Positions 8,927-63,332 of a stretch of DNA of 64,000 nt are shown here, in pieces. The stretch comes from a virus: the IMG/VR virus record IMGVR_UViG_3300045988_103544, positions 18,803 to 82,802 of that record; one strand, given 5' to 3'. Position 1 is the stretch's first letter. Every line of letters starts with the position of its first letter. The notes beneath the pieces were generated by a model. The model was not told the origin of the DNA, made no database searches, and saw only the letters and a program-made list of their open reading frames with translations. The position numbers and the translations under genes are program-made.

Positions 8927-8972
8927 ATCGCCGTTTTTATATGTTATTCTAATAGCAGTATTCAGATTCTAA

Positions 8973-9983: not shown

Positions 9984-10006
9984 AAAAACTACTTACTTTA
10001 TAATTA

Positions 10007-10777
10007 CTACATATCTGCCAGCATAGCATCGAAGTCTTCATCTTGAGCCTCCTTGCCTTCAGTAGAGTCAATAGATTTAGCCTCTTCTGAATCAGCTGCT
10101 GGTACAGGAGCAGTAGGCTTACGCTTCTCCATATCTTCTTTCTGCTTAATCTCATAACTAGAGAATGACAATTTATCTTCCTCTAAGCTAGCAAAATTAT
10201 CACGGATATAGAACTGTCCATCACTATTAATAGCTCCAATATCAGGAATCTTAGCAAATACATTGCCAGTTTCCTTTGAGATTCCCTTTTCATCCTTTTT
10301 CTTTTCCTTACGACCGCTAAGCTTTAAATAAAAGTTTTTATTCATACAATGCTTAGTCAATACTGCCTGGAAAAGCTGCATGAATTGGTCAGTACTCTTA
10401 CAAGCAGGAGCTTTAGTTATAAACAATTCTTTAGCTTTATCACCACCTACTACTGTTATAATATGCAGCATAAAACCTTTAAGCTGTTCAAATGCTGAAG
10501 GAAGTACATATGGGAATTCTACACCCTTAGAATCCTTTCTCTTACCCTCATATCTTTTAGCAGAACTTTCATTAGGATAAAATAATGATTCTTGATAAGT
10601 TCCTTGTTCTCCTTCAAAATGAAGTACCAGAGATTTCCAAGTTGTACTAGGGTCTTGTTTACCTTGACCCTCCTTAGTTTCTACACTTTTTAACTGAACG
10701 AGATAAATTCCATAAGGACGAAGACCTTTCTTACTTGTAGGATTAATATCACCAAGACCCCCAAAATTCAAATTCAT
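10007..10777 (-). CDS. hypothetical protein with acidic C-terminal tail (possible SSB-like)
   Basis: 256 aa ending EAQDEDFDAMLADM, reminiscent of SSB acidic tails; speculative. Confidence 0.3.
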   Translation of the reverse strand: MNLNFGGLGDINPTSKKGLRPYGIYLVQLKSVETKEGQGKQDPSTTWKSLVLHFEGEQGTYQESLFYPNESSAKRYEGKRKDSKGVEFPYVLPSAFEQLKGFMLHIITVVGGDKAKELFITKAPACKSTDQFMQLFQAVLTKHCMNKNFYLKLSGRKEKKKDEKGISKETGNVFAKIPDIGAINSDGQFYIRDNFASLEEDKLSFSSYEIKQKEDMEKRKPTAPVPAADSEEAKSIDSTEGKEAQDEDFDAMLADM

Positions 10778-12137: not shown

Positions 12138-13216
12138 AAACTATAGTCTAATTTACTTTTCACTTTTTCATCTTTATCTTCATTCTTTATTGTATTATCT
12201 GTTGAACTGTTATTTGTAGCTCGATATCTAGAATAATCAAAGATTTCTTCTGGCTTAGGCATTTCCATCCACTTATTTACTGCTCCGTCAAAGAAACAGC
12301 AATCAGCTACTTGGTTTTCTCCATATCTTGACTTTAGTACAAGAATACTTCGAAACCTATAACCCATTTCTTTAACTTGGTAACCTCTATAAGTTATTCT
12401 TTTATCAACTTGAGGATTATATACAGCTAAAATAATTTCAGAATTCTCTGAAACAGTGGATGTTTCCTTAATATCCTCCACCATTGGCTCCATGAAAGCT
12501 TCATTCTTTTTTCTTTCCATGTTAGCCACTGCTCTATTGGATTGCATAACAATAATTGGAGATAATCCTGTTTTATTTCTAATGATAACTAATTTATTAG
12601 TATAATCATCAATTTCTCCTTTTCTGTTCCTTCCATTGGATGGTTGGATCAATCCAACATGGTCAGTTACTGAAAGTATTACTTTTTCAGGGTCTTTCGG
12701 AATATATTTATTCTCTGTAAATTCTCCTTCTTTTTTAAGCTCTTCCATTGTAACTTTTATGAGCCTATCAGAATTAAAAGAGCCTTCGTATATAGTTAGT
12801 ACTTTATATACTTTTTCTAGCCAATCATATCCTAGTTGTACATACTCATATAAATCATCAGGTAAAATATAATCTTTACCTATAGATAATATTTGTTTAG
12901 CAGTCACAACAATATGATAGGTATCATATAAATAGGTACTTAATAATTTAGCTATAATAAAGTCTTCTTTCATTTCAAGAGCAAAGAAAATAATTTTTAA
13001 TTTATTATCTTCTAAATGTTCTTTTAAAGGAGCATATATGTAAGAATATAATACACATGAACTTTTACCTTGTCCTGAACTCGCAAATAAAAGAGTCATG
13101 GTACTTTTAGTAATACCTCCTATTAATTCTTCCAATTTAGGAAGACCCATACTAAATCCTTGATTAAGTCCTTGTCTACCAAGCTCTATCGAACGTTTAA
13201 AACTTTCTAAACTCAC
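12134..13216 (-). CDS. RecA-fold ATPase, DnaB/gp4-like helicase domain protein
   Basis: Walker A LLFASSGQGKSS, later VTDHVGLIQ. Confidence 0.45.
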   Translation of the reverse strand: MSLESFKRSIELGRQGLNQGFSMGLPKLEELIGGITKSTMTLLFASSGQGKSSCVLYSYIYAPLKEHLEDNKLKIIFFALEMKEDFIIAKLLSTYLYDTYHIVVTAKQILSIGKDYILPDDLYEYVQLGYDWLEKVYKVLTIYEGSFNSDRLIKVTMEELKKEGEFTENKYIPKDPEKVILSVTDHVGLIQPSNGRNRKGEIDDYTNKLVIIRNKTGLSPIIVMQSNRAVANMERKKNEAFMEPMVEDIKETSTVSENSEIILAVYNPQVDKRITYRGYQVKEMGYRFRSILVLKSRYGENQVADCCFFDGAVNKWMEMPKPEEIFDYSRYRATNNSSTDNTIKNEDKDEKVKSKLDYSL

Positions 13217-13824
13217 AGAGTGGTGATTGAATTATAATTCATACCTGAATCTCCATTCTTTAAAGCTTCAAGGTCTTCCCATTTTTCATCTACAATAAAT
13301 GTAGCTAAGCTATAATTAATAATACCATTATCAGTATTAGCTTCCCAATCTAGTAAATCAATAATCTTTTTATGAAGTTCTTCATTCCAATGGATTTTCT
13401 TTCCATAAGTTCTATAAGCATCTTCAAGACTATTAAACTTTTTAGAAACACCTAGCATACTAGTTAAGCATCCATTAATATTTCTAAATCTAGGATAATG
13501 TTCTCTAAGTTCTTTTCCCATTTCAAAGGAACTCTTAGCTAAACATTTTAGGAAGTTTTTATTAAATGGTATCTCTTCAGGAACTAATTTCATTCCTGGA
13601 ATAATTTTATAACTTTTAAGGATAAGACCTTTATCTTGTAAAGATTTAAGTATATCTATAAAACTTCCTACATACTTTTTATCAATAGCCAAATACCTAC
13701 GAAGATAATCTTCTGAATAATCTTCTATATAAGCATTAATAGCTTTAATAACAAATAATTCAGTAGGAGTAATATTATATTTTTCTAAAATTGTTATTTC
13801 TTCATCAATGTTTAAATCAAACAT
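13213..13824 (-). CDS. hypothetical protein (203 aa)
   Basis: Minus ORF. Confidence 0.45.
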   Translation of the reverse strand: MFDLNIDEEITILEKYNITPTELFVIKAINAYIEDYSEDYLRRYLAIDKKYVGSFIDILKSLQDKGLILKSYKIIPGMKLVPEEIPFNKNFLKCLAKSSFEMGKELREHYPRFRNINGCLTSMLGVSKKFNSLEDAYRTYGKKIHWNEELHKKIIDLLDWEANTDNGIINYSLATFIVDEKWEDLEALKNGDSGMNYNSITTL

Positions 13825-13902
13825 ACAGTAATTCGGATAATTAAAAGTCTTCCATACTGTAATTAAGTTAATCTCTTCTCAGAGCGATATTAATACATAG
13901 AT

Positions 13903-15192
13903 TCAGAATCTAAAATCAAATTTAGGAACTATCTTTTCACCTGGGGTAAAGTCTTTACCTTGTAATACTTTATCCAATTCTGATTCGTCTATAGTTATAA
14001 AAGAATCTCCCTTATGAGAATCATAAAACCACTTGGTCTCTTGAGTCCTATTTAATACTATATTGAATATCTCTGCTGTCTTACCTTTTTCAAAGCGGAT
14101 TGATCTTCCTCTCCGTTGACAAGCTCTAGTAGTTGAACTATCTAATCCAAATATAATAGCTACAGAAAGACCTTTTACATTAAGTCCTTCATCAGCTTTT
14201 TTTACTGTAGATAATAGAGTTACCTTTCCAGAGTTAAAATCTTCAATAGCTGTAGCACTTCTTTTCTTAGAAGTTCTACTAGAATATACAGTAGCATTAG
14301 GAATTTTTTCTGCCATTTTAATATTATTAGCAAAAGTTATTATTTTTTTATCCTTTCTAGCTTCTATAATTTTCTTTACTATTTCAATTTTCTTTGGATG
14401 ATTATTTATGAAAGCTTTTTTCTCATGCATAGTAGACCAAAATCTGATAGCATGATAATTTATACTTTGTAATACTTCAGACTTTTTATTAGGATCACTA
14501 CACATAGAATCTCTTAGGAGTAGCTTATTTCGCCAACCCATAGGACCAGCTAATTTATTAACTAACTCCCAAGAGAATCCGAAGAATTCAAAATGAGAAA
14601 TGAATTCTTTATTTATTTTTTCATATTCTTCTAAATCATCAACATTTACTAAGACTAGATATTCTTTATATGGGCTAACCCAACCATTTGCAAGACAAGT
14701 ATTAATATCAATAGTATCAATTACTGGGCAGTATTTTGCTAATATTTTATCTCTACCATCAAGACGCTCAAAAGTAGCTGTAAGACCTAAGATAAATTGG
14801 TATTTTACTACTTCAAATAATCTTACAAAAGTCTCAGCTGCATATCTATGCGTTTCATCCAGTACTAAAAGATCATATTTGGCAGGATGTTTTATTACAG
14901 TGTTTATTATTTGTACATCACAACTTAATCCTAGCCCATTAGAATCTATATGACCACACCATTGTTTTTGTAAAGTTTCTGTTGGCACAATTATTAGTAC
15001 TCGATATTGTGGAAAGTGTTTTAACACTGTTTTAATACAGTTTAGTCCTATTCTGCTCTTACCAAATCCAGTAGATGCGACTATTGTCCCTACACAACGA
15101 TTTTTTATCCATTTTCTACGACACTCTTCTTGTCGTTCATCTCTAGTGATTTTATGAAATAGTTCTCCTTCAATCAGAGAGTTTGTAGCCAT
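13903..15192 (-). CDS. Superfamily-2 DEAH-box helicase
   Basis: Motif I VASTGFGKS, motif II LVLDETH, motif VI QRRGRSIR. Confidence 0.65.
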   Translation of the reverse strand: MATNSLIEGELFHKITRDERQEECRRKWIKNRCVGTIVASTGFGKSRIGLNCIKTVLKHFPQYRVLIIVPTETLQKQWCGHIDSNGLGLSCDVQIINTVIKHPAKYDLLVLDETHRYAAETFVRLFEVVKYQFILGLTATFERLDGRDKILAKYCPVIDTIDINTCLANGWVSPYKEYLVLVNVDDLEEYEKINKEFISHFEFFGFSWELVNKLAGPMGWRNKLLLRDSMCSDPNKKSEVLQSINYHAIRFWSTMHEKKAFINNHPKKIEIVKKIIEARKDKKIITFANNIKMAEKIPNATVYSSRTSKKRSATAIEDFNSGKVTLLSTVKKADEGLNVKGLSVAIIFGLDSSTTRACQRRGRSIRFEKGKTAEIFNIVLNRTQETKWFYDSHKGDSFITIDESELDKVLQGKDFTPGEKIVPKFDFRF

Positions 15193-16156
15193 TGTAATCA
15201 GCTACTGCTTTGATTTGTTTAATACGCTTCTCCCACTCTGAAGCTTGCCATCTAACCTTATTTTCGAGATGCAGTAAAACTTTATCTCTTAAGGTTTCCA
15301 ATTGTACTTTAGTCAGATCATTATAACGCTTATCATATTTATCCTTACGGAAGGTAAGCATTGCGCTAAACTCTTTTAGAGTTAAGCCTTTTCTATCATC
15401 AATTTTTAAAACAAGACCTTTTCTATCTTCAGGATTCTTAGGGTCTCTCAATTTAATATTTAGAAGTTCAGCAACTTGCTTAATTCTATCTACTAAACGA
15501 CCATTCTCGTCTTTTTTATTTAATTCTAATAACTCAGAACGTGTAAACCACAATCCAAGCTCAGTAATAAATGTAAGAGTAATGTGTTTACGGGCACATT
15601 TACCTAAAGCAGATAAACAAGCTTCTCTAACGATATACAATGGTAATGAAGCAAACATGGTAAATGAATCTTCATCACTATTCATAATATCATTAAGAGT
15701 CCACTCTTTAAAGAGAGTCTCTGCAATAGCACTAACATTTGTCTCGCCCTCACCACTTTCTGCATTCTCTTTAGCAAACTGTTCTGCCTGAGCAGTAATC
15801 TGCTGATTGAGCATATTAAAGAAACTAGTTCTTACAATACCTTGTCTAGTACTACCTTCACCTGGGTACAATAGCCAAATTAAGAACAACTCAGCATTAC
15901 AGCGAGTTCTTTGATCTTCAATCTGTTCCAACAAAACTCGTCGTCCAGGATTTTCATAGTTGTCACTATAAAGCATTGATTCACAATGTTTATATGCTTT
16001 ATGTAATTCTTCTTCAGTCATATCTACCATTTTCATGGAAGATTGAATGCGTTCACCATCTACAATTTTTCTGGAACCTTTCCAGAGAAATGTTTCTACA
16101 TCATTATTCTTAGCTTCAAAAGCTTGATTGAGTTTATCACCTAAAACTGTTGTCAT
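15170..16156 (-). CDS. hypothetical protein (328 aa)
   Basis: Minus ORF. Confidence 0.5.
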   Translation of the reverse strand: MTTVLGDKLNQAFEAKNNDVETFLWKGSRKIVDGERIQSSMKMVDMTEEELHKAYKHCESMLYSDNYENPGRRVLLEQIEDQRTRCNAELFLIWLLYPGEGSTRQGIVRTSFFNMLNQQITAQAEQFAKENAESGEGETNVSAIAETLFKEWTLNDIMNSDEDSFTMFASLPLYIVREACLSALGKCARKHITLTFITELGLWFTRSELLELNKKDENGRLVDRIKQVAELLNIKLRDPKNPEDRKGLVLKIDDRKGLTLKEFSAMLTFRKDKYDKRYNDLTKVQLETLRDKVLLHLENKVRWQASEWEKRIKQIKAVADYNGYKLSD

Positions 16157-34185: not shown

Positions 34186-34515
34186 GTGGAGCATTGGAGA
34201 GTCGAACTCCAGTCACTCCGATTTGCATCAAAACGTTCTTACAGCATAGGTTTTAAAGACTATCCTTGTCTGTTAGGGTTGACAAGATTAATATTGTCAA
34301 CTTCCACCACTCTGTTCCTAAAGTATACAGAGAACTAATAAAGAAATGAAAAATAGTGCACCTTTCTGTTCCTAAGCAAGTGCTGCTCGACTTATTAGGC
34401 AGCAGCCTGATAAGCAGGAGTCATATTGATAACTCTAGCGATTATTGTTTTGTTGTCTCTCCAACTGTCTTGCTGTGTTTCTTATCTCCTCGAAGTTCAA
34501 AACCACGAATGCCCC
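34186..34515 (-). ncRNA. ssrA: tmRNA (SsrA-like), ~330 nt
   Basis: 5' end GGGGCAT pairs with 3' ATGCTCC-A, including the G3.U70 alanine identity pair. T-arm GGAGTTCGACTCTCC. Internal tag-like frame ...ARVINMTPAYQAAA followed by TAA TAA. Confidence 0.6.
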
Positions 34516-45770: not shown

Positions 45771-45840
45771 TGGAGATACGTGGAATCGAACCACAATCTC
45801 AGGATTTTCATCGTGCTCTAACCTTTTGAGCTATATCTCC
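45771..45840 (-). ncRNA. tRNA-like element (70 nt) with canonical acceptor, D and T arms but no foldable anticodon arm
   Basis: GGAGATA/TATCTCC acceptor, GCTC/GAGC D-stem, T-arm TGTGG-TTCGATT-CCACG; middle ACGATGAAAATCCTGAGAT does not form a 5-bp stem/7-nt loop. Confidence 0.3.
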
Positions 45841-45948
45841 ATAGCCCACATTTCTATAAAGGAGAATAGTGGTAACACCTACCTATACTAATAAATTTAT
45901 TAGTCAGGATTTATCTAAACACACTAACAATATATCAAATTAAATTTG

Positions 45949-46032
45949 TACGGTAGAAAGGATTCGAACCAATGACCTTCTCGAAATGACCTATTATAAA
46001 AAGAGATGCTCTAACCACTGAGCTACTACCGT
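45949..46032 (-). ncRNA. tRNA-like element (84 nt) with enlarged 20-nt anticodon-region loop
   Basis: ACGGTAG/CTACCGT acceptor, GCTC-AGTGGTTA-GAGC D-arm, T-arm ATTGG-TTCGAAT-CCTTT; central stem TCTC/GAGA encloses TTTTTATAATAGGTCATTTC. Confidence 0.35.
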
Positions 46033-46087: not shown

Positions 46088-46486
46088 TTAAAAGCCGAAT
46101 GAAAACATGGTATCTGCGGAAGTACTAAGAGTTACGTAAGGAATTTTATTTCTTACTGTAATAAAGACAATAAAGCGTCTTCCTGTATTAACCTCTCCGC
46201 AATTATGGATTTCTACTCCATCCTTCATTTCAGAAGAGTATATTTTTAATACCATTTTACCAAACTTACTATTACTAAAAGTAATAGTTTTTCTAGCTTC
46301 ATTATATACTACTGAAGTTTTAATATATAATGGGTCACTCCATTCACCATCTTGATAAACAGTGATAGAACCATAATTAAACGCATGAGCTATTGTAGTT
46401 AATACAATAAAACTCATTAATAAAATAATCTTTTTCATATTACTCAATCTTTTTAATGTTAGTACGGAGTAAAGGATTCGAACCAA
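46088..46486 (-). CDS. secreted hypothetical protein (132 aa)
   Basis: Signal peptide MKKIILLMSFIVLTTIAHA. Confidence 0.45.
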   Translation of the reverse strand: MVRILYSVLTLKRLSNMKKIILLMSFIVLTTIAHAFNYGSITVYQDGEWSDPLYIKTSVVYNEARKTITFSNSKFGKMVLKIYSSEMKDGVEIHNCGEVNTGRRFIVFITVRNKIPYVTLSTSADTMFSFGF

Positions 46487-46543
46487 TATAACCTCTCTAT
46501 GAATTGTGGAAATGAGGCGCTCTAGCCATTAAGCTAACTCCGC
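46463..46543 (-). ncRNA. tRNA-like element (81 nt) with enlarged 20-nt anticodon-region loop
   Basis: GCGGAGT/ACTCCGT acceptor, D-stem GCTT/GAGC, same unusual T-arm ATTGG-TTCGAAT-CCTTT; stem GCCTC/GAGGT encloses ATTTCCACAATTCATAGAGA. Confidence 0.35.
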
Positions 46544-54747: not shown

Positions 54748-54782
54748 TCTCCTATGGTGTAATGGTTAGCACAGAAGACTCT
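54748..54782 (+). tRNA. 5' exon of intron-containing suppressor tRNA (predicted anticodon CUA after splicing; Gln-type U1-A72)
   Basis: TCTCCTA-TG-GTGT-AATGGTTA-GCAC-A-GAAGA-CTCT, ending on U (a group I 5' splice site follows a U). Confidence 0.6.
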
Positions 54783-55785
54783 TAAAAATTTTAAAGTATG
54801 GAAAATAAAATTTATAAACTTACGGATAAAGAGTTTTCAGACTTAGTTAAGTCAAGTCTGAATATCTCAGAAGTTTTATTTAAACTTGGATATACTACTG
54901 TTGGAAACAGTTGGGGATATTCACAAGTTAAACAAAGAATGCAAGATTTAAATTTATCAGGTAAAGATTTTAGAGGCAAATCAGCTATAGTCGACTGTAA
55001 TGAAAAGAAAGAAATAGATGCTTCTAAATTATTATGTGAAAATTCAAAACACGCACGTAATATATTAAGAAGCTATATATTAAGAAACAAATTACTTCCT
55101 TATACATGTGCAATATGTGGAATTACAGAATGGCAGGGTAAGACTTTATCTCTAGAATTAGACCATATTAATGGTGTAAATAATGATAATAGAATAGAAA
55201 ATCTAAGATTTTTGTGCCCTAATTGTCATAGTCAAACCACTACTTATGGTGCTAAAAATAAACAAAAAGTAGAATCTAAATACGAACTTTCTGATGAATT
55301 AAAGAATTTAATTATTAGTTCTTATATAGAATTAAAAAATCAAAAGAAAGTTGCTGATAGATATAATTTAAATCCTAAAGCAGTAAAACAAGTTTTATCA
55401 GAAGCTGGATTAACTAAACAAAATCAAAAGTATGTTATACAATATGACTCTTCTCATAATGAAATAAGAAGATTTGGGTGTATAGCAGAATGTTGTCAAT
55501 GGTTAATGGATAATAATTTAGTAACTACTAAATTAATGAAAACTTGTAGAGCAACTCTAAATAGAAATGTTGGCATTCTTTGGAAAAACTATTACTTTGA
55601 AATATTGGATGCTTAAAGGATAATCCATAATCTTTAAGTAGAATCTCTTTTAATCGACTTGGAAGCGTATATACTTAGTATAAAGTGACAGGGCGCAAGT
55701 TTAAATACAGCGTGAACGACTAAATAAAGAGACTGGTCCTAGGACTGGATGTGATAGTCTAATCCTCTACAGAGGTGTTAAAATG
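54783..55785 (+). mobile_element. Group-I-like self-splicing intron (~1003 nt) in the tRNA anticodon loop, carrying an HNH homing endonuclease ORF
   Basis: Starts 15 nt before the HNH ORF. The 3' 170 nt are GC-richer and structured, with R-like (AACGACTAAATA) and S-like (GATAGTCTAATCC) group I core elements. The last nucleotide is G (55785), as expected for omega-G. Confidence 0.5.
54798..55616 (+). CDS. HNH homing endonuclease (intron-encoded)
   Basis: 272 aa, standard code; HNH motif LELDHINGVNNDNRIENLRFLCPNCHSQ; paralog of 44791-45498. Confidence 0.7.
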   Translation: MENKIYKLTDKEFSDLVKSSLNISEVLFKLGYTTVGNSWGYSQVKQRMQDLNLSGKDFRGKSAIVDCNEKKEIDASKLLCENSKHARNILRSYILRNKLLPYTCAICGITEWQGKTLSLELDHINGVNNDNRIENLRFLCPNCHSQTTTYGAKNKQKVESKYELSDELKNLIISSYIELKNQKKVADRYNLNPKAVKQVLSEAGLTKQNQKYVIQYDSSHNEIRRFGCIAECCQWLMDNNLVTTKLMKTCRATLNRNVGILWKNYYFEILDA

Positions 55786-55822
55786 AAATCTTTTAGCCAG
55801 GGTTCGAATCCTTGTGGGAGAA
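55786..55822 (+). tRNA. 3' exon of the suppressor tRNA
   Basis: AAA-TCTTT-TAGC-CAGGG-TTCGAAT-CCTTG-TGGGAGA-A. Pairs with the 5' exon (acceptor TCTCCTA/TGGGAGA, anticodon stem GAAGA/TCTTT). Spliced loop is CTCT+AAA = CUCUAAA. Confidence 0.6.
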
Positions 55823-56345: not shown

Positions 56346-57485
56346 TTATTGCTTTATATATAAAAAATTTCCTCCACCAGTATTCTAAGCATCATATTTT
56401 AATAAATCATCTCTGGTAAATATTTTATCAAAGGTTCTTAATCCTGAATGATAAGTTCCATTATCTAGAGTATATAAATCTACTGTTTTAACATTATTTC
56501 TAGATTTCATAGCTTCTATCTCATCTCTAATATTATCTATACTTCCGGAAACTAAACGAATTTCTTTACCAGCCTATATAATTATTCTTCCTCCAGCTAT
56601 AGAACCATATTCATCAGTTCTATTATTATTAGCTAAAAAATTTAGTCTGTTATTTACAGATTTACCATTTACTATAGCATTTAATATAGGACTTTTTCTA
56701 GAACCATTAGAATTACTTTCCATGAATAATACATTACCTTTAGAATCTGTTTTAAAACCAGTAACAGTATTTTTATATATTGGAGAAATCATACTTCCAT
56801 TAGGAATATCTGAATATTTACCAAAAACAAATTTACCAATAGAATCTATACCTATATAATTCTAATTATTAGGAGATATACTTTCTTTAGATTTGAAATT
56901 AGAAAAAGCAGTAATAGGAGCTGCTATACTATTTATAGGAGTATAATCACCTCTATTTCTATAACCAAAAGTATGCTTTGTTAAATTTATGGATTCTGGT
57001 ATACGATATCTTCTAGAGTTTATTTTAGTAGTATCATTTATAGTATAACTATTTGGAGATATTTCTATTTCTAAATTTTCTCTCCCCTTATTTTTAGTTA
57101 CTTTTTTATTAGGAATTTTAATTCTTTTACTAGTATGCTCAGGTTCTGAATCAAAAAATAACTATAGTTTTCTACTTAATCCATTTCCTACTAAATTAAT
57201 CAACTATTTACCACGTTCCCACATTGTTTCTTCTTTCTATTTAGAAGTAGATATTTTTTTAGCAGTGGGCATTTCTTTATATTTTGCCGGGTGGTATACT
57301 AAAGTAGATGTTGGTTTATAGGGATCTACTCCTTTAGCCTAAACCTATGGAAATATTATACTATTAGCTTTATCAGAATTAATTTTAAAAGGAATCTTAT
57401 TTGATTTTCTTCTACCATACAACTACCCATCTTCATACCAGTAATCATATATTGAATCATTATCAGTAATTACCTATACAGCCAT
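56346..57485 (-). CDS. late protein L8 (~379 aa), TAG-recoded (~11 in-frame TAG)
   Basis: Continuous frame from ATG 57485 (MAVQVITDNDSIYDYWYEDGQ...) through ORF 56574-56792 to ...KYDAQNTGGGNFLYIKQ then TAA at 56346. Only TAG interrupts it. Confidence 0.55.
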
Positions 57486-58606
57486 GGTGTTATTATTATT
57501 ACTGGAGTTCCTAATTTATCTAATATTTTTAATCCTAACACAGCTTTACTGTCTAAATCATATGAACTCCATTTCTACTTATATTCATTAGGATTAAACT
57601 TCCAAATATCTTGTGCCCTATACACTTTCTTACCATTAGATGTTCCTTCCTAAACTAAATGTCCAGCAGCATCAACTCCATTATCTCCAAAGTCTAGATT
57701 ATTATTAGCACCTTTCCAAGGAGTTTTATTAGTTATATTAGAAGCTTTCTGCATAGGTTTCTTAGTAAAGAAATCTAAAGTTTCAGTATTTTCATATACA
57801 GGAATATCTTTATATGGATATATCTTTCTTATATAGTTCTCATGTGGACCATAATCTACATTTATTTTCTTTACTCCATAAGAAGGATTTATAGTTTTAT
57901 TATATAAATAAGCATCAATCATATCATTACCTTTAGCTGCTTTCTAAAATCCAGTATATGCTTCAGGAGCATAGGTATTGTAACCTACACCAGTTGATAT
58001 ATAAGACAATACTCCAGCATGCTTTTTAGGACTTGCTTTATGCATATTATATACTATGTCTTCTATAGGATTAGCATTATTAGAAGTTCTCATAGCTACT
58101 TCTACTCCACGTTTTAAAGGAGCTTTTACAGCATATCCTATTGCAGGAAGCATTACTAAATAATTACTAGCTTTAGTTGGATTCTTAGATATATCTAAAG
58201 CACCTTTAGTATAATCATATACTGCCTAAGCAGCTGGAGCTAAAGCATAACCTATTCCTGAATTAACTAATGCTTTAATAGGACTAGTATTATTATTCCA
58301 ACTATCTACTTCTCTAGCATAAGCTCCTTTTATAGGATGGGTTCTATTCTTATTACTATAATTATATAATTTAGAATGAGTATGTCCTCCCTATTTTATA
58401 GTCCCTCTATTATCTACAAATACATCTTGTACCCCATTTAAAGTTCTAACTGGAATAACTCTCTACTAATATTTAGCACCAAGATATGGAGATTTAAATC
58501 TAAGATGATTTAGTCTATTATAATATTCCATATCTATAGCCATCTATTTATTCCGAGTATTATTATTTACTCCTTTATTTTGTTTACTTTCATCTACTAT
58601 TGGCAT
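57470..58606 (-). CDS. late protein L7 (~378 aa), TAG-recoded
   Basis: ATG 58606 (MPIVDESKQNKG...) runs continuously through track ORFs 57944-58153 and 57650-57922, joined by TAGs, to TAA at 57470. Confidence 0.5.
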
Positions 58607-58608
58607 AT

Positions 58609-58824
58609 TTATACTTTATTTTTCCATATACTAGTTATACTATCTATACCTAGTAATCCCATACAACAATATAAAACTGTATCTATCATATCAGGAGCTT
58701 GTATCTAACTAATAGAACAGTATATTAGAATAATTAAACTTACTATCCATCCTAATATTCCACATACTCTTTTACTACTTATTCCAGTATGTGCTGTTAT
58801 TAATTTAATTAAAAACTATTTCAT
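58609..58824 (-). CDS. small 2-TM membrane protein (holin-like, 71 aa), TAG-recoded
   Basis: MK(TAG)FLIKLITAHTGISSKRVCGILGWIVSLIILIYCSIS(TAG)IQAPDMIDTVLYCCMGLLGIDSITSIWKNKV; its ATG overlaps the upstream TGA stop (ATGA). Confidence 0.4.
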
Positions 58825-59959
58825 TTCTAAGAATTATTTAAGAACGGTAAACTCATACCTATAGGTGCTGCTATTTTGAATACATTAGGATCTAACTTAG
58901 GAATAGTTAATCTAGAATCTCGTAATATATTTCCAGTTATTCCTTTAAGAGGTATTCTATTCCTTTTCATATTAAGTGGAATTAAAAAATCCTCATTTAT
59001 TTCATACTCAATATTAGGATAATTACCTATTATATTAGAAGCTTTATACTAGTTAAGCTACGTTTTTGGTATATCTATATACTATAATTCTATAGGATTG
59101 TCAACTCCTTCTTTTATAGCTTTTCTTCGAGTATTAGAAGCATATATTAATGTTTTTCTTGGGTTATCAGTAAACCACATTCCTGTATATTTAGCTGTCC
59201 CATCCGGAGATGGAGTAAATTTACCATTAGTACCAGAAGCTCTATATAATCTCACCATACCCTAATCTAATTTAGGTTTCTAAAATATTCCTACTTCAAT
59301 AGGTTCTTTAGTTCCTTTCATAGTAAGTTGTCTAGTTTCATTCTAGATAAATCCAAAGTCTTTACCAAATCTATTTATACCATGAATACCTCCTTTAGAT
59401 ACAGAACCCCAAGTAGAGAGATTAGCACCTTCAGGTACTTCATCTGCAACCTTAGCAAATAGCTACATTTTATTACCATAGCTTAAACCATTTCTATCTG
59501 TTTTAAAATGAACTGAATAATTATTAGGTTCAGCATCCTTTACTAGTCCAAATCTTTGATTAGGCTATTGTTTAAAGAAATAAGAAGTAGCTTCATTTCC
59601 TTCAGCTTTTCTAGTACTCCAAGCTTTTCTAGTAGGTCTGTAATAAGATAACTGCATAATAGGATTATCTCCTGTTGTGTATTCTTTAGCAGCTAAGTTA
59701 TTAGTAATTCCTTGAGATACATTTCTAGTTAAATTTCCAGCAGTCTCATTAAGTAAACTATTTCTTGCCCAATGTGAAACTGTATTCTAACCCATCTTAG
59801 AGAGTGCTATTTTACCTAAACCTAATCCTAAATTTCCTGCAGCAATTCCTACTACAAATTCTCCTACTGGATCTGCTCCTGACATAGCTCCTGCTTGAGG
59901 ATTAGTACTAGTTTTAGTATTTCCATACTAATCTTTTACTGTAACTATCTCACTATGAG
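58821..59959 (-). CDS. late protein L5 (~379 aa), TAG-recoded (~13 in-frame TAG)
   Basis: ATG 59959 MPHSEIVTVKDQYGNTK...GGIHGINRFGKDFGFIQNE...LPFLNNSQK ending TGA 58821; possible longer N-terminus upstream. Confidence 0.45.
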
Positions 59960-60262
59960 GCATACTCCTCTTAGCTAAAGCTAATCTTTCTTTAATTGGT
60001 AGATTATTATATTTAGCTTTTAAATTTTTAGCGGCAGGCTATAATCTATTTTTTAAATTAGTAGGATTAAGAATTCCTCTAGATTGAGTATTTCTAGTTA
60101 TTTCTTAATCCTACTTAGATTGTTGCCACGGTAATCCAGTGGTTTTAAAATTTAATTTACCTGTTTTCTAATATTTAGATATCCATTTCATATCTCTTTA
60201 AATATTTATCCCATAACTATTTATCTCTCTCACTTACAAAATCTAAAAATCTTTGTAATTCC

Positions 60263-60778
60263 TCAATCTTTTCTGTCAAAATATATGTATCCATTATTAT
60301 TTTTATTGGGTTTTAAATTAAATCCACTACCTTTAGTTTTAGTAACATACAATGTTGGGAGAACATTAGCTCCATCATAAACTACTTTAGTTCCGCCATT
60401 ATTATAGTCATAATCGGAACCTAGATAGTCCATAGTATAATCTAAAGGCTAACCACTATTAGGTTTTATATATTGATCTTTACTTAAATAATATATCTTA
60501 TTATCTTTACTCCAAGATTTATCTCCTAAATCTGGATAAGTCGGATGAGTTTTAGTTTTATAAGTCCCTGAAGCTCCTTCATCAGGAAAATGCCCAGTAG
60601 GAATATACCTATTCCAATTATGTGCTAGAATACTGTTTAACTATAACCAAGCTACTATAGGTTGGTCATTATAGTATTTTCTATAATCGTAATGGTCTTT
60701 AGATAAATCCTAATTACCCCATGCTTGAGATAACTATTTACTCCAAATATTATAATTATTATTATTTATTTCTGGCAT
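60263..60778 (-). CDS. late protein L4b (~171 aa), TAG-recoded
   Basis: MPEINNNNYNIWSK(TAG)LSQAWGN(TAG)DLSKDHYDY...YFDRKD ending TGA; start overlaps the upstream gene end. Confidence 0.45.
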
Positions 60779-61406
60779 GTATATCAATAATATTAGGTAT
60801 AATCTAAATAGGTAACTATATCTTAGGACTTAATTTAATAACATCATTTGCTATTATAGTATTCCTTTTAGCTACCTATTCTAAATAAGATCTATTTAAT
60901 TCCTAGTTCAACTTAGATGTGAAGTATGAACCTTGACTTGGTCGAACTCCTTTTTTAGCTAATTTTTTAGTAGTTTCTTTTTTCTACTAATTTAATACTA
61001 CGTCGACTTGTCTCTTCCGCATAGCATTAACTCTTGGAGAATGATGTTTAGGGTAATAACCAGGTTTGTGTACGCTAGATCTAAGAAAATTAGAACCTCC
61101 CTTAGCTAAAGCTGATGCAAATTTAGCTCCTAATATATCTGCCCCAGTTTCCAAAGTATTTCATACGGCATTTCCAAAATTACTTGGGGATTCTTTAAAA
61201 GTCTTGTACCATCCTCTACCAGCTTGATAACCATCTATAACTAAAGAAGGCAACTAACCTACTCCAGCAATAATTCCTCCTATAGGAGCACCTACAGCGG
61301 TAGTACTTATACCTGCACCTAGTCCTAAACTACCTAAAGATATAGCTGCCGCGGTAGGTTCCCATTTATCTACTTGACGATCCAATTCTTCAAAAATTTT
61401 AGGCAT
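60762..61406 (-). CDS. late protein L4, Gly-rich membrane-like segment; TAG-recoded, plus one in-frame TGA
   Basis: MPKIFEELDRQVDKWEPTAAAISLGSLGLGAGISTTAVGAPIGGIIAGVG(TAG)LPS...FGNAV(TGA)NTLETGADILGAKF...; ATG overlaps the TAA of the upstream gene (ATGCCTAA). Confidence 0.4.
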
Positions 61407-62201
61407 TTCTAAATTTATTTATATATTTTGCAACACTAGTACCATTGGCATCAGACCCTCCTGCAATACCATACTTATAATAATTTTTAGTCCATTTTGG
61501 ATTTAACCATGATGCTGCTATAGCTTCTCCAGTAGCTGCTATACCATTATTTCTTAAAAATCTTGCATTATCATCATATAATTGTGATGCGGCTAATACT
61601 TGTGCATCAGGACTATTTTTAAACTGTTCTCTAGATAAATTAGAATATTTATTTCTAGTACTATCTATAAACTAGAACCATCCAGCAGCAGAACTATTTT
61701 TAGACTAAGCTTTAGGATTAAATCCTGATTCTAGAGAAGCTATTTTCATTAAAGTAGTTTTCTTGTTTCCAGTGATACCATATTTATCTAAAGTTTGTTC
61801 TAGTATCTTTTTACTTTTACTAGGGTTAGACTAAGCTTTAGGATTAAATCCTGATTCTAGAGAAGCTATTTTCATTAAAGTAGTTTTCTTGTTTCCAGTG
61901 ATACCATATTTATCTAAAGTTTGTTCTAGTATCTTTTTACTTTTACTAGGGGTATTATGATTTAATTTAAGCTGAGTATATTTATATTGTACAGGTTCTT
62001 TAGCTTTATTAATAGAAAAATATCCATCTAAATTTAAACCATTAATATGAAAATCTCCAGTATTTAATTCAGGAATATACTAATATTGTTTAGGAGTAAA
62101 ATCTAAATCTAAACCTTTACTTTTTAGTACTTCTGTAGCAGGCTTATCAGGAATATCTAAAGCTTCATATTTAAAATATTCACTCATAATTTTATCAAAC
62201 C
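61399..62201 (-). CDS. Lytic transglycosylase (SLT domain) protein, TAG-recoded (5 in-frame TAG), with a 42-aa tandem duplication
   Basis: MSEYFKYEALDIP...KIASLESGFNPKA(TAG)S...SSAAGWF(TAG)FIDSTRNKY... TAG falls on the conserved Q of the SLT GLMQ motif. ES catalytic motif present. Confidence 0.6.
61702..61953. repeat. Perfect 126-bp tandem duplication (2 copies) inside the SLT gene
   Basis: AGACTAAGCTTTAGGATTAAATCCTGATTCTAGAGAAGC...TTACTTTTACTAGGG occurs twice back to back with period 126; duplicates 42 aa including the ES catalytic motif. Confidence 0.8.
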
Positions 62202-62429
62202 ATTATGTATTTTAGAATGACAATTTTTACAAACACAAACTGTTTGAGATAATTCTTTAATAAATAAATCTGTAGGTATATGACTTACAGCTTGTGATAT
62301 ATTAAATAATTTTTCTCCAGTATGATGAAATTCTAAACAACATTTAGCTGATTCACCACATATTATACATTGTGTTTTATGTTCATTTAAAATCTTTTTA
62401 TTTTCTTTATAATATTTATTCTTACGCAT
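62184..62429 (-). CDS. Small HNH endonuclease (81 aa), standard code, inserted between recoded late genes
   Basis: CIICGESAKCCLEFHHTGEK...CVCKNCHSKIH zinc-finger/HNH motif; no in-frame TAG; overlaps both flanking recoded genes. Confidence 0.6.
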   Translation of the reverse strand: MRKNKYYKENKKILNEHKTQCIICGESAKCCLEFHHTGEKLFNISQAVSHIPTDLFIKELSQTVCVCKNCHSKIHNGLIKL

Positions 62430-63186
62430 AACTAGAATAATTACCAGGCTAATTAAAATTAACTAAAGCTAATGGTCCTAATCCTTTAGTAGCTCTATAA
62501 TAATTAATTCTTTTCTTTACCCCAGGTCTTGTAAGTAATAAATCTTTTCTGTAACCATTATAGCCTTTTTCAGAGTTATACATGTACTTAGCATTTTTTT
62601 GTATTCCATCATAGTACTACTAAAAATTCTAGGCTTTAAGTGAGTCTGGATACATTCTACTATGCCAATTAATTAGATGGTCTGCAAAAGATTGTGCATT
62701 AGGATATTTTTTATCATCTCCAGTAGCGAATCCAGTCCAACCTTTTTCTGCAACCTTTTGGTTAGTTAAATCTAAAGCTGCCTGTGGGGTAACTCCTTTA
62801 TCTACTAAAGCTTGATATATCTAAGTCACATTATTATATTGACTCCTAGTTCCAGGCATCTTACCTGCTAACTACATTTTAAGAATAGTGCCTCCATTAG
62901 CATGTTTCCATTTAGCAGCATTTCTAGCAAAATTAGCTCGACGTTTTTGTAAAGGAGTAGCATTAGGATTATTTAATACAGATTTAGCATGCTCCTGTAC
63001 AGATTCTCCAGCTGCTTTAGCTGAGGCAGTAAACTTACCCTTATTTTTATCTTTTATATGAATAGTATCTTTTCTATCTTTTATCTATCCGCCTTTCTTT
63101 AGTTTATTTATAAAACTATACTGATTTTTAATCTTAAAATCCTAATAGGCAGAACAAATTCTTTCTTGTAATTCAGAATTAGTCAT
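62422..63186 (-). CDS. late protein L1 (~254 aa), TAG-recoded (6 in-frame TAG)
   Basis: ATG 63186 MTNSELQERICSAY(TAG)DFKIK...KGG(TAG)IKDRK...ILKM(TAG)LAGKMPG... ending TAA 62422. Confidence 0.5.
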
Positions 63187-63189
63187 AAT

Positions 63190-63332
63190 GTAATAAATAA
63201 GATTAAAATACTTTTGAATATAAATAACCTATATATATACTTAAATAGTACAAAATAATAATAACTTTACCTATTAAATATAGTAATAATGTTATTATAG
63301 ATAACATATATATAAATATTACTTATAGTAAT
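63190..63332. promoter_or_regulatory. AT-rich divergent intergenic region between minus- and plus-strand recoded late genes (probable bidirectional late promoters)
   Basis: ~140 nt of >85% AT between divergent ATGs at 63186 and 63333. Confidence 0.3.

What the first reader, a model, noticed from the sequence alone, without database searches (positions are those of the whole stretch)
54748..55822. Amber-suppressor tRNA(CUA) gene interrupted by a group-I-like intron that encodes an HNH homing endonuclease
Two short segments 1 kb apart on the plus strand assemble into a complete cloverleaf. The acceptor stem is TCTCCTA/TGGGAGA with a U1-A72 pair, the D-stem is GTGT/GCAC and the T-arm is CAGGG-TTCGAAT-CCTTG. 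The anticodon stem GAAGA/TCTTT has its two strands on opposite sides of the insertion. The 5' segment ends ...GAAGA-CTCT, on a U. The 3' segment begins, right after a G at 55785, with AAA-TCTTT. Splicing at those canonical group I sites (after U, after omega-G) gives the 7-nt loop CUCUAAA, anticodon CUA, a TAG reader. U1-A72 is the hallmark of bacterial tRNA-Gln, consistent with TAG being read as Gln downstream. The intervening 1003 nt carry an intact HNH endonuclease ORF plus a 170-nt 3' region with R- and S-like core elements. Suppressor tRNAs are known in stop-codon-recoded phages, and group I introns with homing endonucleases are known in tRNA genes. A suppressor tRNA whose maturation depends on self-splicing looks unusual and could couple decoding of the recoded genes to intron splicing.
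Basis: partly seen in the sequence, partly recalled or inferred. Interest (0 to 1): 0.95.

Follow-up and report, generated by a model that had tools for sequence, protein, structure and literature searches.

The report
Self-splicing intron splits phage suppressor tRNA
A gut phage that reads the stop codon TAG as glutamine in its late genes has the tRNA for this job split by a mobile group I intron carrying its own HNH endonuclease gene; standard tRNA finders miss such split genes, which may explain why some recoded phage genomes seem to lack a suppressor tRNA.

Summary
Window 54748-54782 and 55786-55822 are the two halves of a tRNA(CUA). The 1003 nt between them (54783-55785) are a group I intron inserted between tRNA positions 35 and 36. 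It encodes an intact 272-aa HNH endonuclease.

- **Junction:** related phages with about 97% identical flanks carry the uninterrupted gene, with exactly the predicted loop CUCUAAA.
- **Family:** 36 distinct homologous introns all sit at this site in tRNA(CUA) genes, including one in a classified crAss-like phage.
- **Core:** P2-P9, including the P3/P7 pseudoknot, are 99% paired, and 22 of 38 pairs show compensatory changes.
- **Covariance models:** a model built only from capsid-gene group I introns hits the window once (E 8e-16). Rfam RF00028 and ARAGORN miss it.
- **tRNA halves:** they co-vary across the intron.
- **Code:** late genes carry 4-12 in-frame TAG each, and these exchange with CAA/CAG in relatives.

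Splicing itself and the P1 guide pairing (UCU/GGA) are inferred. Intron-less sister alleles argue that the intron is a selfish passenger rather than a required regulator. I found no prior description in the held literature. The closest known case is HNH-bearing introns at position 35/36 in Patescibacteria tRNA-Asn.

The parts
54748..54782 (+). tRNA(CUA) 5' exon, tRNA positions 1-35: acceptor 5' strand, D arm, anticodon stem 5' strand, and loop C32 U33 C34 U35
   Evidence: It is identical to the 5' part of the uninterrupted alleles in L003, L004, L005 and L012.
54783..55785 (+). Group I intron, 1003 nt, inserted between tRNA positions 35 and 36. It starts with U and ends with omega-G.
   Evidence: Boundaries come from the intron-less alleles. 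The core is supported.
54798..55616 (+). HNH homing-endonuclease ORF, 272 aa, with a TAA stop and no in-frame TAG or TGA. It lies between the 5' splice site and the inferred guide sequence, that is, in the P1 loop.
   Evidence: All 36 family members have an intact ORF of 265-304 aa.
55605..55611 (+). UUGGAUG. The inferred internal guide sequence is GGA (55607-55609), pairing with U33-C34-U35 of the exon with G.U at the splice site. The UU could pair with intron +1/+2 (P1) or with the 3' exon AA (P10).
   Evidence: GGAUG is invariant in 25 of 25 sequences, although the preceding codon changes amino acid (L, K, E). L022 and L032 change the two bases 5' of GGA together with the intron's first bases. 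This is an inference, not a demonstration.
55612..55638 (+). P2 hairpin (CUUAAAG...CUUUAAG). It contains the ORF stop codon.
   Evidence: All five counted pairs show compensatory changes and 99.2% of cells are paired.
55644..55650 (+). P3 5' strand, UCUCUUU
   Evidence: Pairs with 55726-55732. Six of 7 pairs show compensatory changes and 100% are paired.
55658..55692 (+). P4 (55658-55661 with 55689-55692) enclosing the P5 hairpin (about 55670-55682) and A-rich J4/5
   Evidence: P4 is 100% paired with 2 compensatory pairs. P5 was read by eye and varies in length.
55693..55713 (+). P6 (GCGC/GCGU) and P6a
   Evidence: Invariant P6, and one compensatory pair in P6a. It is part of the motif GGCGCAAG..GCGUGA.
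55716..55722 (+). P7 5' strand, A-(C bulge)-GACUA, with J6/7 GUGA upstream. The G:C pair next to the bulge is the putative guanosine-binding site.
   Evidence: Pairs with 55755-55760 as a pseudoknot. Two pairs are compensatory (A:U vs C:G, and A:U vs G:C), and the G:C pair is invariant. It resembles the RF00028 consensus AGACUAAA / AUAGUC shown.
55726..55732 (+). P3 3' strand, AAAGAGA
55733..55748 (+). P8 hairpin
   Evidence: Six pairs, 3 of them compensatory, 98.7% paired.
55749..55760 (+). J8/7 (AUGUGA) and P7 3' strand (UAGUCU)
55764..55775 (+). P9 hairpin (CCUC UACA GAGG), present only in the window's subgroup
   Evidence: Three of 4 pairs are compensatory among the 9 sequences that have it.
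55785..55785 (+). omega-G, the last intron nucleotide
   Evidence: It is G in 27 of 36 distinct family members.
55786..55822 (+). tRNA(CUA) 3' exon: A36 A37 A38, anticodon stem 3' strand, variable loop, T arm, acceptor 3' strand and discriminator A
56349..63240 (-). Block of late-type genes written with in-frame TAG (4-12 per ORF). These are the presumed clients of the suppressor tRNA.

Best explanation
Window 54748-55822 is a phage gene for an amber-suppressor tRNA (anticodon CUA, glutamine-type). A mobile group I intron interrupts it between anticodon-loop positions 35 and 36.

Shown:
- The two exons are exactly the two halves of an uninterrupted tRNA(CUA) gene found in sister phages.
- The last ~150 nt of the intron form a conserved group I core (P2, P3-P8 with the P3/P7 pseudoknot, a bulged P7 with an invariant G:C pair, P9, and a terminal G). 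This core is homologous to ~200-nt introns that precisely interrupt phage capsid genes.
- The intron carries an intact HNH endonuclease gene written in the standard code.
- The downstream late genes need UAG to be decoded, most probably as Gln.

Inferred:
- The primary transcript self-splices. An external guanosine attacks after U35, which is held in a short P1 helix (U33-C34-U35 with the invariant GGA at 55607-55609). The ~820-nt ORF region loops out of P1.
- The exon's 3' end then attacks after omega-G 55785. This ligates CUCU to AAA and yields a 72-nt tRNA with anticodon CUA.
- The HNH enzyme cuts intron-less tRNA(CUA) alleles in co-infecting relatives and so spreads the intron (homing).
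- The intron is a selfish passenger. It survives because it sits in a gene the phage cannot lose and because it splices out.
For: - **Exact junction:** L003, L004, L005 and L012 carry the identical uninterrupted tRNA with the loop CTCTAAA. L006 and L008-L010 carry uninterrupted variants with the same junction. ARAGORN reads anticodon cta in the four it scanned (L003, L006, L009, L012). Where flanks align (L003-L006, L008, L012) they are 91-98% identical to the window, and 96-98% in L003, L004, L005 and L008.
- **Family:** all 49 homologues of the HNH ORF whose upstream sequence was held (out of 50 loci, L014-L063) are preceded by a tRNA 5' half ending CUCU (UUCU in one). 36 distinct introns of 969-1003 nt were resolved, and each is followed by AA(A/C) plus the complementary stem. 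Six more cases lie in MAG contigs.
- **Core structure:** on 25 sequences, 38 pairs are 99.2% paired and 22 pairs changed on both sides. Slid controls give 35-47% paired, and 0 of 500 shuffles reach the observed value.
- **Homology to real introns:** removing the ~200-nt relatives at U|...G| restores continuous capsid-like ORFs and a conserved motif. A covariance model built from 31 of those introns hits the window once, at 55638-55763, with 89.8 bits and E 8e-16 over its full length. The next hit has E 2.7. It scores 77-92 bits on other tRNA-type introns and finds nothing in intron-less loci.
- **Selection on the joined tRNA:** across 24 distinct genes the acceptor stem is 97.6% paired and the anticodon stem 100% paired, with many compensatory changes, although the strands lie on opposite sides of the intron. 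Shuffled partners give 71-72%. ARAGORN of 33 spliced constructs tRNA(cta).
- **Need for the tRNA:** there are 0 TAG in 5433 codons of early genes and 50 in 1958 codons of the late block. In a 97-98% identical relative, the portal gene has 46 TAG and a 2071-aa ORF has 64. No other tRNA(CUA) is found in the window or in that 55-kb relative.
- **Gln:** window TAG codons align in relatives to TAG 146 times, CAA 10 and CAG 1. The reverse comparison gives CAG 9, CAA 4, TAT 2 and AAG 2. U1 is present in 23 of 24 tRNAs and the 1:72 pair is weak.
- **Endonuclease gene:** HNH by Pfam and PHROG. All 36 ORFs are intact and free of TAG.
Against: - No RNA data were available, so splicing was not observed.
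- Rfam RF00028 gives no hit on the window intron even at E<=10 on short stretches.
- The minimum-free-energy fold of the 3' region is no better than that of shuffled sequence (z = 0.27).
- No conventional 5-6-bp guide sequence could be found. The proposed P1 has only 3 exon base pairs and rests on invariance plus two co-varying sequences.
- The training set of the custom model was collected with a motif taken from the window's own core, so its E-value overstates its independence.
- Nine of 36 family members (none in the window's subgroup) end in A instead of the canonical G.
- Only 64 kb of the genome, plus a relative's 55 kb, were searched for a second suppressor.
Confidence: 0.85

Rival explanations
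1. Domesticated timer. The intron is not merely selfish: the phage uses splicing, or competition between translation of the HNH ORF and folding of the ribozyme, to delay or gate the supply of suppressor tRNA and so the switch to TAG-containing late genes.
For: - The tRNA sits at the boundary between standard-code and TAG-containing blocks.
- The ORF runs through the inferred guide sequence and stops inside P2. In the crAss-like subgroup it runs through P2-P6 and stops in or just after the P7 5' strand. A translating ribosome would therefore unfold the ribozyme.
- Another ribozyme class, theta, is already linked to phage suppressor tRNAs (PMC10879173).
Against: - Phages with about 97% identical flanks carry the same tRNA without any intron, or with a different, ORF-less 223-nt intron. 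The HNH intron is therefore dispensable for the recoding system.
- The tRNA's position at the block boundary is the same in intron-less alleles.
- There are no expression data.
Confidence: 0.1
2. Dead gene. The insertion has inactivated the tRNA, the intron no longer splices, and UAG is decoded by another phage or host suppressor.
For: - Rfam finds no group I intron.
- P1 is very short.
- The whole genome is not in hand.
Against: - The exon halves keep co-varying across 24 diverged genes.
- The core helices are 99% paired with compensatory changes.
- All 36 ORFs are intact.
- No other tRNA(CUA) is found in the window, in the 55-kb relative, or in the complete Bohxovirus genome, which carries the same arrangement and in-frame TAGs.
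Confidence: 0.04
3. The intron splices, but only with protein help (the HNH protein acting as a maturase, or a host factor), or the exons are joined by an RNA ligase after ribozyme cleavage. On this view it is not autonomously self-splicing.
For: - The core is minimal (about 150 nt), P1 has 3 bp, and the crAss-like subgroup has no P9.
- A clade lacks omega-G, which should impair the second step.
Against: - The homologous ORF-less capsid-gene introns of about 200 nt have the same core and no associated protein gene.
- By my recollection, a 3-bp P1 is sufficient in the Azoarcus tRNA-Ile intron (recalled, not tested here).
- No maturase motif was tested.
Confidence: 0.08
4. Splicing occurs at another site and gives a different anticodon (for example CUU, Lys), or the tRNA inserts an amino acid other than Gln at UAG.
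For: The intron begins with U, so CUCU|U offers two adjacent U residues.
Against: - The uninterrupted alleles read CUCUAAA. Using the next U would give an 8-nt loop.
- 24 of 28 TAG-to-sense exchanges between relatives involve CAA or CAG.
- U1 and a weak 1:72 pair fit recognition by glutaminyl-tRNA synthetase (GlnRS) (the identity rule is from E. coli and is established knowledge).
Confidence: 0.02

Closest known systems
Group I (subgroup IA) introns at position 35/36 of tRNA-Asn, -Asp and -Tyr genes in Patescibacteria, four of them with HNH (PF01844) endonuclease genes (PMC13011429)
   Same: - Same insertion point, after U35 in the anticodon loop.
- Same endonuclease family.
- They also escape ARAGORN and RF00028.
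- They were shown experimentally to splice accurately.
   Different: - Here the host is a phage, not a bacterium.
- The host gene is a stop-codon suppressor tRNA(CUA), not a sense tRNA.
Classical bacterial and plastid tRNA group I introns: cyanobacterial tRNA-Leu(UAA) at 34/35, tRNA-fMet at 33/34 with the PD-(D/E)XK enzyme I-Ssp6803I, Agrobacterium tRNA-Arg, and Azoarcus tRNA-Ile(CAU)
   Same: - A self-splicing group I intron in the anticodon loop.
- The anticodon stem must re-form from the two exons.
- A very short P1 (3 bp, CAU/GUG, in Azoarcus, from my own knowledge) resembles the UCU/GGA proposed here.
   Different: - Those are mostly subgroup IC3 and ORF-less.
- They have different insertion positions and cellular hosts.
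- RF00028 recognises them, but it does not recognise this one.
Phage group I introns with HNH homing endonucleases in protein genes (e.g. I-HmuI in Bacillus phage SPO1 DNA polymerase, I-PfoP3I in cyanophage Pf-WMP3, PMC3428280; T4 td, nrdB and sunY introns)
   Same: - Phage-borne, mobile, and carrying an HNH open reading frame looped out of the ribozyme.
- The core found here is homologous to ~200-nt introns in phage capsid genes.
   Different: The 2014 review states that every phage intron known by then lay in a protein-coding gene, although phages encode many tRNAs (PMC3984707). This one lies in a tRNA gene.
Theta (minimal HDV-like) ribozymes next to phage tRNAs, one fifth of them suppressor tRNAs (PMC10879173)
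   Same: A ribozyme takes part in maturing a phage suppressor tRNA in recoded gut phages.
   Different: Theta ribozymes are small self-cleaving motifs at tRNA ends. This is a splicing ribozyme inside the anticodon loop, and it has its own mobility gene.

Membership tests
Group I intron | Conserved core helices P3-P8, with P3 and P7 forming a pseudoknot | tested here: met
   38 pairs (P2, P3, P4, P6/6a, P7, P8, P9) are 99.2% paired on 25 sequences, and 22 pairs show compensatory changes. Slid controls give 35-47% paired.
Group I intron | Guanosine-binding site: a G:C pair in P7 next to a bulged nucleotide, with conserved J6/7 and J8/7 | tested here: met
   The G:C pair (columns 157:199) is invariant, column 156 is unpaired, and the closing pair co-varies (A:U vs C:G). 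The sequence GACUAAA...GAUAGUC matches the RF00028 consensus printed. Whether it binds guanosine cannot be tested here.
Group I intron | 5' exon ends in U, paired with G of an internal guide sequence (P1) | tested here: inconclusive
   The exon ends in U35 in all members. The only conserved candidate guide is the invariant GGA in GGAUG just 5' of P2, giving 3 bp. Weak covariation of neighbouring bases is seen in L022 and L032. No longer complement is conserved.
Group I intron | Intron ends in G (omega-G) | tested here: met
   G at 55785. It is G in 27 of 36 distinct family members and in all members of the window's subgroup. Nine members of the other subgroup have A.
Group I intron | Recognised by a covariance model of the family | tested here: inconclusive
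   Rfam RF00028 gives no hit at E<=10, but it also misses 20 loci holding homologous introns. A custom model built from 31 capsid-gene introns scores 89.8 bits, E 8e-16, over its full length.
Group I intron | Precise excision restores the host gene | tested here: met
   Removing 54783-55785 gives exactly the uninterrupted allele of sister phages. For the capsid-gene relatives, excision restores continuous ORFs. This is a DNA-level inference, not observed RNA.
Group I intron | Self-splicing with guanosine and Mg2+ in vitro | not testable with these tools
   Needs an experiment.
Amber-suppressor tRNA (anticodon CUA), glutamine-type | Cloverleaf with a 7-nt anticodon loop, U33, anticodon CUA and a purine at position 37 | tested here: met
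   The spliced sequence folds as a cloverleaf. ARAGORN reads anticodon cta in 33 of 33 spliced constructs. The loop CUCUAA(A/C) is invariant.
Amber-suppressor tRNA (anticodon CUA), glutamine-type | UAG used as a sense codon in the same genome, equivalent to Gln | tested here: met
   50 TAG in 1958 late codons against 0 in 5433 early codons. TAG exchanges with CAA or CAG in 24 of 28 substitutions between relatives.
Amber-suppressor tRNA (anticodon CUA), glutamine-type | GlnRS identity elements (weak 1:72 pair, U35, G73 in E. coli) | tested here: inconclusive
   U1 is present in 23 of 24 tRNAs. The 1:72 pair is U:A, U.G or U.U, and U35 is present. The discriminator is A in 23 of 24, not G. The host's rules are unknown, and charging cannot be tested here.
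HNH homing endonuclease | HNH (beta-beta-alpha-metal) motif with flanking Cys pairs | tested here: met
   PF01844 at 26 bits against a cut-off of 21.4, residues 104-147. phrog_10822 at E 2.7e-42. The sequences CAICG...DHINGVNNDNRIENLRFLCPNCH are conserved between the window and Bohxovirus.
HNH homing endonuclease | Cleaves the intron-less allele near the insertion site and drives homing | not testable with these tools
   Indirect support only. The locus is polymorphic for presence or absence of the intron among phages with about 97% identical flanks, and the ORF occurs exclusively in tRNA(CUA) genes.

The most novel reading that the evidence does not exclude
The intron is more than a passenger. 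Mature suppressor tRNA can appear only after the ribozyme folds, and the HNH reading frame runs through the guide sequence and P2 (through most of the core in crAss-like phages). Translation of the endonuclease and splicing would therefore exclude each other on a given transcript. The phage could exploit this as a post-transcriptional gate that times the switch from the standard code to the TAG=Gln code. A further possibility concerns the clade whose introns end in A: it may represent natural group I introns that carry out exon ligation without omega-G.
Probability: 0.12. Interest if true: 0.85.

Novelty: new member of a known kind. Interest (0 to 1): 0.6.

Why it matters
- **A known puzzle in recoded phage genomes.** Two surveys of crAss-like phages report genomes with obvious TAG or TGA reassignment but no detectable suppressor tRNA, and blame divergent tRNAs (PMC7886860; PMC12386605). 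Here a family of at least 36 distinct tRNA(CUA) genes is invisible to ARAGORN and Rfam because a ~1-kb intron splits the anticodon loop. One example is the complete genome of a classified crAss-like phage, Bohxovirus PV686213. It has many in-frame TAGs and no annotated suppressor, and its intron ORF is labelled 'hypothetical protein'. Pipelines that assign genetic codes or annotate phage genomes could recover these tRNAs with a simple split-tRNA search.
- **Group I intron host range.** A 2014 review stated that all known phage introns lie in protein genes (PMC3984707). A phage tRNA gene extends that range.
- **Dependence on a ribozyme.** If the intron splices as inferred, expression of the portal, terminase and tail genes of these phages depends on that reaction. 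This is experimentally tractable and is a possible control point.
- **Intron turnover.** Three allelic states occur at one site in near-identical phages: no intron, a short ORF-less intron, and the HNH intron.

Tried and rejected
- **Rfam:** cmscan at gathering threshold and at E<=10 on 1.3-kb and 241-nt stretches found no group I hit. I set this aside as uninformative once RF00028 also missed 20 loci holding homologous introns.
- **Minimum-free-energy folding** of the 3' region was no better than shuffled sequence. Covariation was used instead.
- **Search for a conventional guide sequence.** Scans for >=5-6 bp complementary to the exon end with G opposite U(-1) found only the SWG-codon run UGGGG inside the ORF and the tRNA's own acceptor strand. 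Neither co-varies with the exon. A 10-bp complement at 54827-54836 pairs U(-1) with A and is absent from Bohxovirus, so I rejected it. I also rejected the 3' strand of the hairpin 5' of P3 as a guide, because it cannot pair with CUCU.
- **Stop-set ORF statistics** over the whole window did not separate the codes. Per-ORF counts did.
- **Amino-acid composition** of late versus early genes could not identify the residue encoded by TAG. Codon exchange between relatives could.
- **tblastn** of a late protein against the phage records found nothing. In that query I had masked every Gln, not only the TAG positions.
- **BLAST** of the intron core against the phage records found only the near-identical MT835539.
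- **phmmer** of the HNH protein against PDB sequences found nothing.
- **PHROG scans** of the small ORFs flanking the tRNA found nothing.
- **ARAGORN's 'tRNA-Stop (tta)' at 45948-46032** was considered as a second suppressor and rejected. A 1-nt shorter T run in the L012 homologue changes the call to Tyr(ata), and the real feature is an 18-20-nt anticodon loop.
- **A bacterial origin of the intron** (for example Bacteroidota tRNA-Leu) was looked for with the HNH protein in 185,579 species genomes. Only six MAG contigs matched, and all again held a split tRNA(CUA).
Full report
**1. The observation**

The sequence is as described.

- Positions 54748-54782 read TCTCCTA-TG-GTGT-AATGGTTA-GCAC-A-GAAGA-CTCT.
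- Positions 55786-55822 read AAA-TCTTT-TAGC-CAGGG-TTCGAAT-CCTTG-TGGGAGA-A.
- The 1003 nt between them start with U and end with G (55785).
- They contain one long ORF, 54798-55616, of 272 aa. It is an HNH endonuclease: Pfam PF01844 above its cut-off and phrog_10822 at E 2.7e-42.

ARAGORN lists 13 other tRNA or tmRNA genes in the window but not this one. Rfam finds neither a tRNA nor a group I intron here, at gathering threshold or at E<=10. Joined in silico, the two halves fold into a cloverleaf at minimum free energy, and ARAGORN then reads a tRNA with anticodon cta.

**2. The junction is fixed by natural intron-less alleles**

An exact-match scan of viral contigs with the 3' half returned 11 loci.

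- Eight carry an uninterrupted gene with the loop CTCTAAA. In L003, L004, L005 and L012 this gene is identical to the window's two exons joined. L006 and L008-L010 are variants with the same junction. ARAGORN reads anticodon cta in the four it scanned (L003, L006, L009, L012).
- L011 and L013, together with GenBank MT835539 (L001; human faeces; 97.9% identical), carry the same 1003-nt insertion.
- One locus (L007) carries a different, ORF-less insertion of 223 nt at exactly the same point.

Intron ends and exon ends share no bases, so the boundary cannot slide. The intron is 54783-55785 and lies between tRNA positions 35 and 36. In L003, L004, L005, L007 and L008 the flanks are 96-98% identical to the window. 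Three allelic states therefore coexist in one phage lineage.

The short intron recurs in a contig from another sample (L214). It has an obvious P1 (CUCU|U with AGGAG, G.U at the splice site). It gets weak but full-length matches to RF00028 (16.8 bits, E 0.086) and to my own model (about 20 bits). It is probably a group I intron of another lineage.

**3. A family confined to tRNA(CUA) genes**

Searching viral contigs with the HNH protein gave 178 relatives, of which 80 were kept. Fifty of these loci (L014-L063) hold close homologues of the ORF.

- In all 49 whose upstream sequence was held, a tRNA 5' half ending in CUCU (UUCU once) lies 12-45 nt before the ATG.
- A systematic parse resolved 36 distinct introns of 969-1003 nt. 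Each is followed by AA(A/C) plus a stem complementary to the 5' half.
- One of them is in a complete, classified crAss-like genome: Bohxovirus PV686213 (Suoliviridae), where the ORF is annotated 'hypothetical protein'.
- In 185,579 species-representative genomes, only six MAG contigs hold the ORF, and all again show the split tRNA(CUA).
- All 36 ORFs are intact (265-304 aa) and contain no in-frame TAG.

**4. The RNA core is a group I core**

By eye, the last ~170 nt read like the Tetrahymena and Rfam consensus. GACUAAAU is followed by a purine strand, then a hairpin, then GAUAGUC (compare the RF00028 consensus printed).

I aligned 25 family members (A2) and tested an explicit structure: P2, P3, P4, P6/P6a, P7 as a pseudoknot with a bulged nucleotide, P8 and P9.

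- 99.2% of 886 cells are standard pairs.
- 22 of 38 pairs changed on both sides.
- No shuffle out of 500 reaches the observed values.
- Sliding the 3' partners by 1-3 columns drops pairing to 35-47%.
- P3 alone shows UCUCUUU/AAAGAGA, UCUCCUU/AAGGAGA, UCCUAUC/GAUAGGA, UCCCUCU/AGAGGGA and more.
- The G:C pair of P7 next to the bulge is invariant, and the closing pair switches between A:U and C:G.

**5. Link to proven introns**

The motif GGCGCAAG..GCGUGANNGACU occurs once in the window and in more than 120 viral loci. Most of these are ~200-nt elements in protein genes. They have a textbook P1 hairpin (exon ...U|, with G opposite), followed by UUAAAA and P3, and they end ...AAUG|.

Removing three of them at those sites restores continuous capsid-like ORFs. 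It also restores a conserved motif that is uninterrupted in the others: DKFG|TGPTRDAY in L189, against DRFGTGPVRSAY in L188 and DRFGSAPVRNAY in L114. They are therefore real introns.

RF00028 at gathering threshold misses all of them, so its silence on the window says little.

A covariance model built from 31 of these capsid-gene introns, with no tRNA-type sequence in it, gave these results:

- It hits the window once, at 55638-55763, with 89.8 bits and E 8e-16 over the full model. The next hit has E 2.7.
- It scores 77-92 bits on other tRNA-type introns.
- It finds nothing in intron-less loci.

One caveat applies. The training set was fished out with a motif taken from the window, so the model is not fully independent. 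However, the match includes P3, P4 and P8, which are outside that motif.

**6. P1 is the weak point**

I found no 5-6-bp guide sequence. The best candidate is the invariant GGAUG (55607-55611), two bases before P2. This is the canonical place for the 3' strand of P1.

- GGA pairs with U33-C34-U35, with G.U at the splice site.
- It overlaps the last codons of the ORF and stays unchanged while the preceding amino acid varies (Leu, Lys, Glu).
- In the two sequences where the UU before GGA is replaced (AA in L022, GA in L032), the intron starts with UU or UUG instead of UA. This keeps an extension of the helix.

A 3-bp P1 has a precedent in the Azoarcus tRNA-Ile intron (from my own knowledge). On this reading, the ~820-nt ORF region loops out of P1. 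This step is inferred.

**7. The tRNA is under selection as one molecule and is needed**

- Across 24 distinct genes, the acceptor stem is 97.6% paired and the anticodon stem 100% paired, with many compensatory changes. The two strands of each stem lie on opposite sides of the intron. Shuffled partners give 71-72%.
- Minus-strand ORFs from 56349 to 63240 contain 4-12 in-frame TAG each, while the large ORFs upstream mostly contain none.
- In total there are 50 TAG in 1958 late codons against 0 in 5433 early codons.
- The late block includes a transglycosylase or tail-lysin-like protein.
- In the 97-98% identical MT835539, the next 30 kb hold a portal gene with 46 TAG, part of the large terminase, and a 2071-aa ORF with 64 TAG.
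- No other tRNA(CUA) is found in the window or in that scaffold.
- The Bohxovirus genome likewise has many TAG-containing long ORFs, fragmented GenBank CDS calls, and no suppressor tRNA by annotation or ARAGORN.

**8. Which amino acid**

Window TAG codons align in related loci to TAG (146), CAA (10) and CAG (1). Where relatives have TAG, the window has CAG (9), CAA (4), TAT (2) or AAG (2). U1 is nearly invariant, with a weak or mismatched 1:72 pair. The discriminator, however, is A, not G. Gln is the best reading and agrees with code 15 in crAss-like phages (PMC9523058 abstract).

**9. Mechanism and its rivals**

The most likely course has four steps.

1. The split gene is transcribed.
2. The ribozyme folds.
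3. Guanosine attacks after U35, and exon ligation follows after G55785.
4. The mature tRNA-Gln(CUA) decodes the late genes, while the HNH enzyme homes the intron into empty alleles during co-infection.

A dead gene is unlikely, given points 4 and 7. A regulatory role for splicing is possible. The ORF runs through the guide sequence and stops in P2, and in the crAss-like subgroup it runs through P2-P6 and stops in or just after the P7 5' strand. Translation and folding should therefore compete. But intron-less sister alleles show that the recoding system works without the intron.

**10. What is known**

In the held literature I found no description of an intron in a phage tRNA or in a suppressor tRNA. 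Subscription journals are not covered.

- The 2014 review says all phage introns known then are in protein genes.
- The closest case is the 2026 report of IA introns at position 35/36 in Patescibacteria tRNAs, four with HNH genes. These are also missed by ARAGORN and RF00028, and they were shown to splice.
- Two crAss-like surveys note recoded genomes without a detectable suppressor tRNA.

I therefore rate this as a new member of a known kind, in a new and consequential host gene, with moderately high interest.

Noticed in passing
L002 (Bohxovirus PV686213) 3945-3955; also L023, L033, L034, L035, L037, L046, L049, L057: Nine of 36 distinct introns of this family end in A instead of the canonical terminal G (..CAGUCGGUUUAACA|AAC). 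The boundary is fixed by homology with L032, which has the same exons and ends ..UAUG. ORFs and tRNA halves look intact, and Bohxovirus has no other tRNA(CUA). It is unknown whether these splice without omega-G.
   Followed up: partly
L007 700-922 and L214 about 5351-5569: A different, ORF-less 223-nt intron sits at exactly the same 35/36 site of the same tRNA(CUA), in phages about 97% identical to the window. It has a clear P1 (CUCU|U with AGGAG) and only weak full-length matches to RF00028 (E 0.086) and to model R1 (E 0.06-0.11).
   Followed up: partly
window 45949-46032 (-), 46463-46543 (-), 45771-45840 (-): Three tRNA-like genes have abnormal anticodon arms. Two have a 4-bp stem closing an 18-20-nt loop and a T stem with two U.U mismatches. 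ARAGORN misreads one of them as 'tRNA-Stop (tta)'. Both are conserved in related contigs (L006, L012). Their function is unknown; possibilities include a mini-insertion, a decoy, or an expanded loop.
   Followed up: partly
window 34186-34515 (-): ARAGORN calls a tmRNA gene (tag peptide ARVINMTPAYQAAA), but the Rfam gathering scan of the window lists no tmRNA family hit.
   Followed up: no
They have a strongly conserved core (UUGACUUGGAA..GACAGGGCGCAAG..CAGCGUGAACGACUAAGU..AUGCGAUAGUCUGAA), and Rfam RF00028 does not detect them at gathering threshold. Some genes carry two copies (L111, L125).
   Followed up: partly
window 61402-62202 (-): The transglycosylase or tail-lysin-like late gene contains a tandem duplication of about 125 bp (repeat NPSKSKKILEQTLDKYGITGNKKTTLMKIASLESGFNPKAQS). 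The close relative MT835539 lacks it.
   Followed up: no
window 56377-56627: A 251-bp segment inside the first recoded ORF region is absent from the otherwise 97-99% identical MT835539.
   Followed up: no
window 2521-3195 (-), 8396-8992 (-), 13126-15288 (-): A few ORFs in the otherwise TAG-free early region carry 3 in-frame TAG each. The boundary between the two codes may therefore not be a single point.
   Followed up: no
L216 (MT835539) 8809-10749 (+): A 647-aa TAG-free ORF sits inside the recoded block. It combines an exonuclease-like N terminus with a region matching intein-bearing terminase profiles, which suggests another mobile element (an intein) in this phage lineage.
   Followed up: no
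L223/L224 (PV686213, whole record): The GenBank annotation of this complete crAss-like genome shows dozens of very short minus-strand CDSs between 4 and 60 kb. This is typical of a recoded genome annotated with the standard code. Even with TAG read as sense, the longest ORF is only 716 aa, so further interruptions (introns or another reassignment) are likely.
   Followed up: partly
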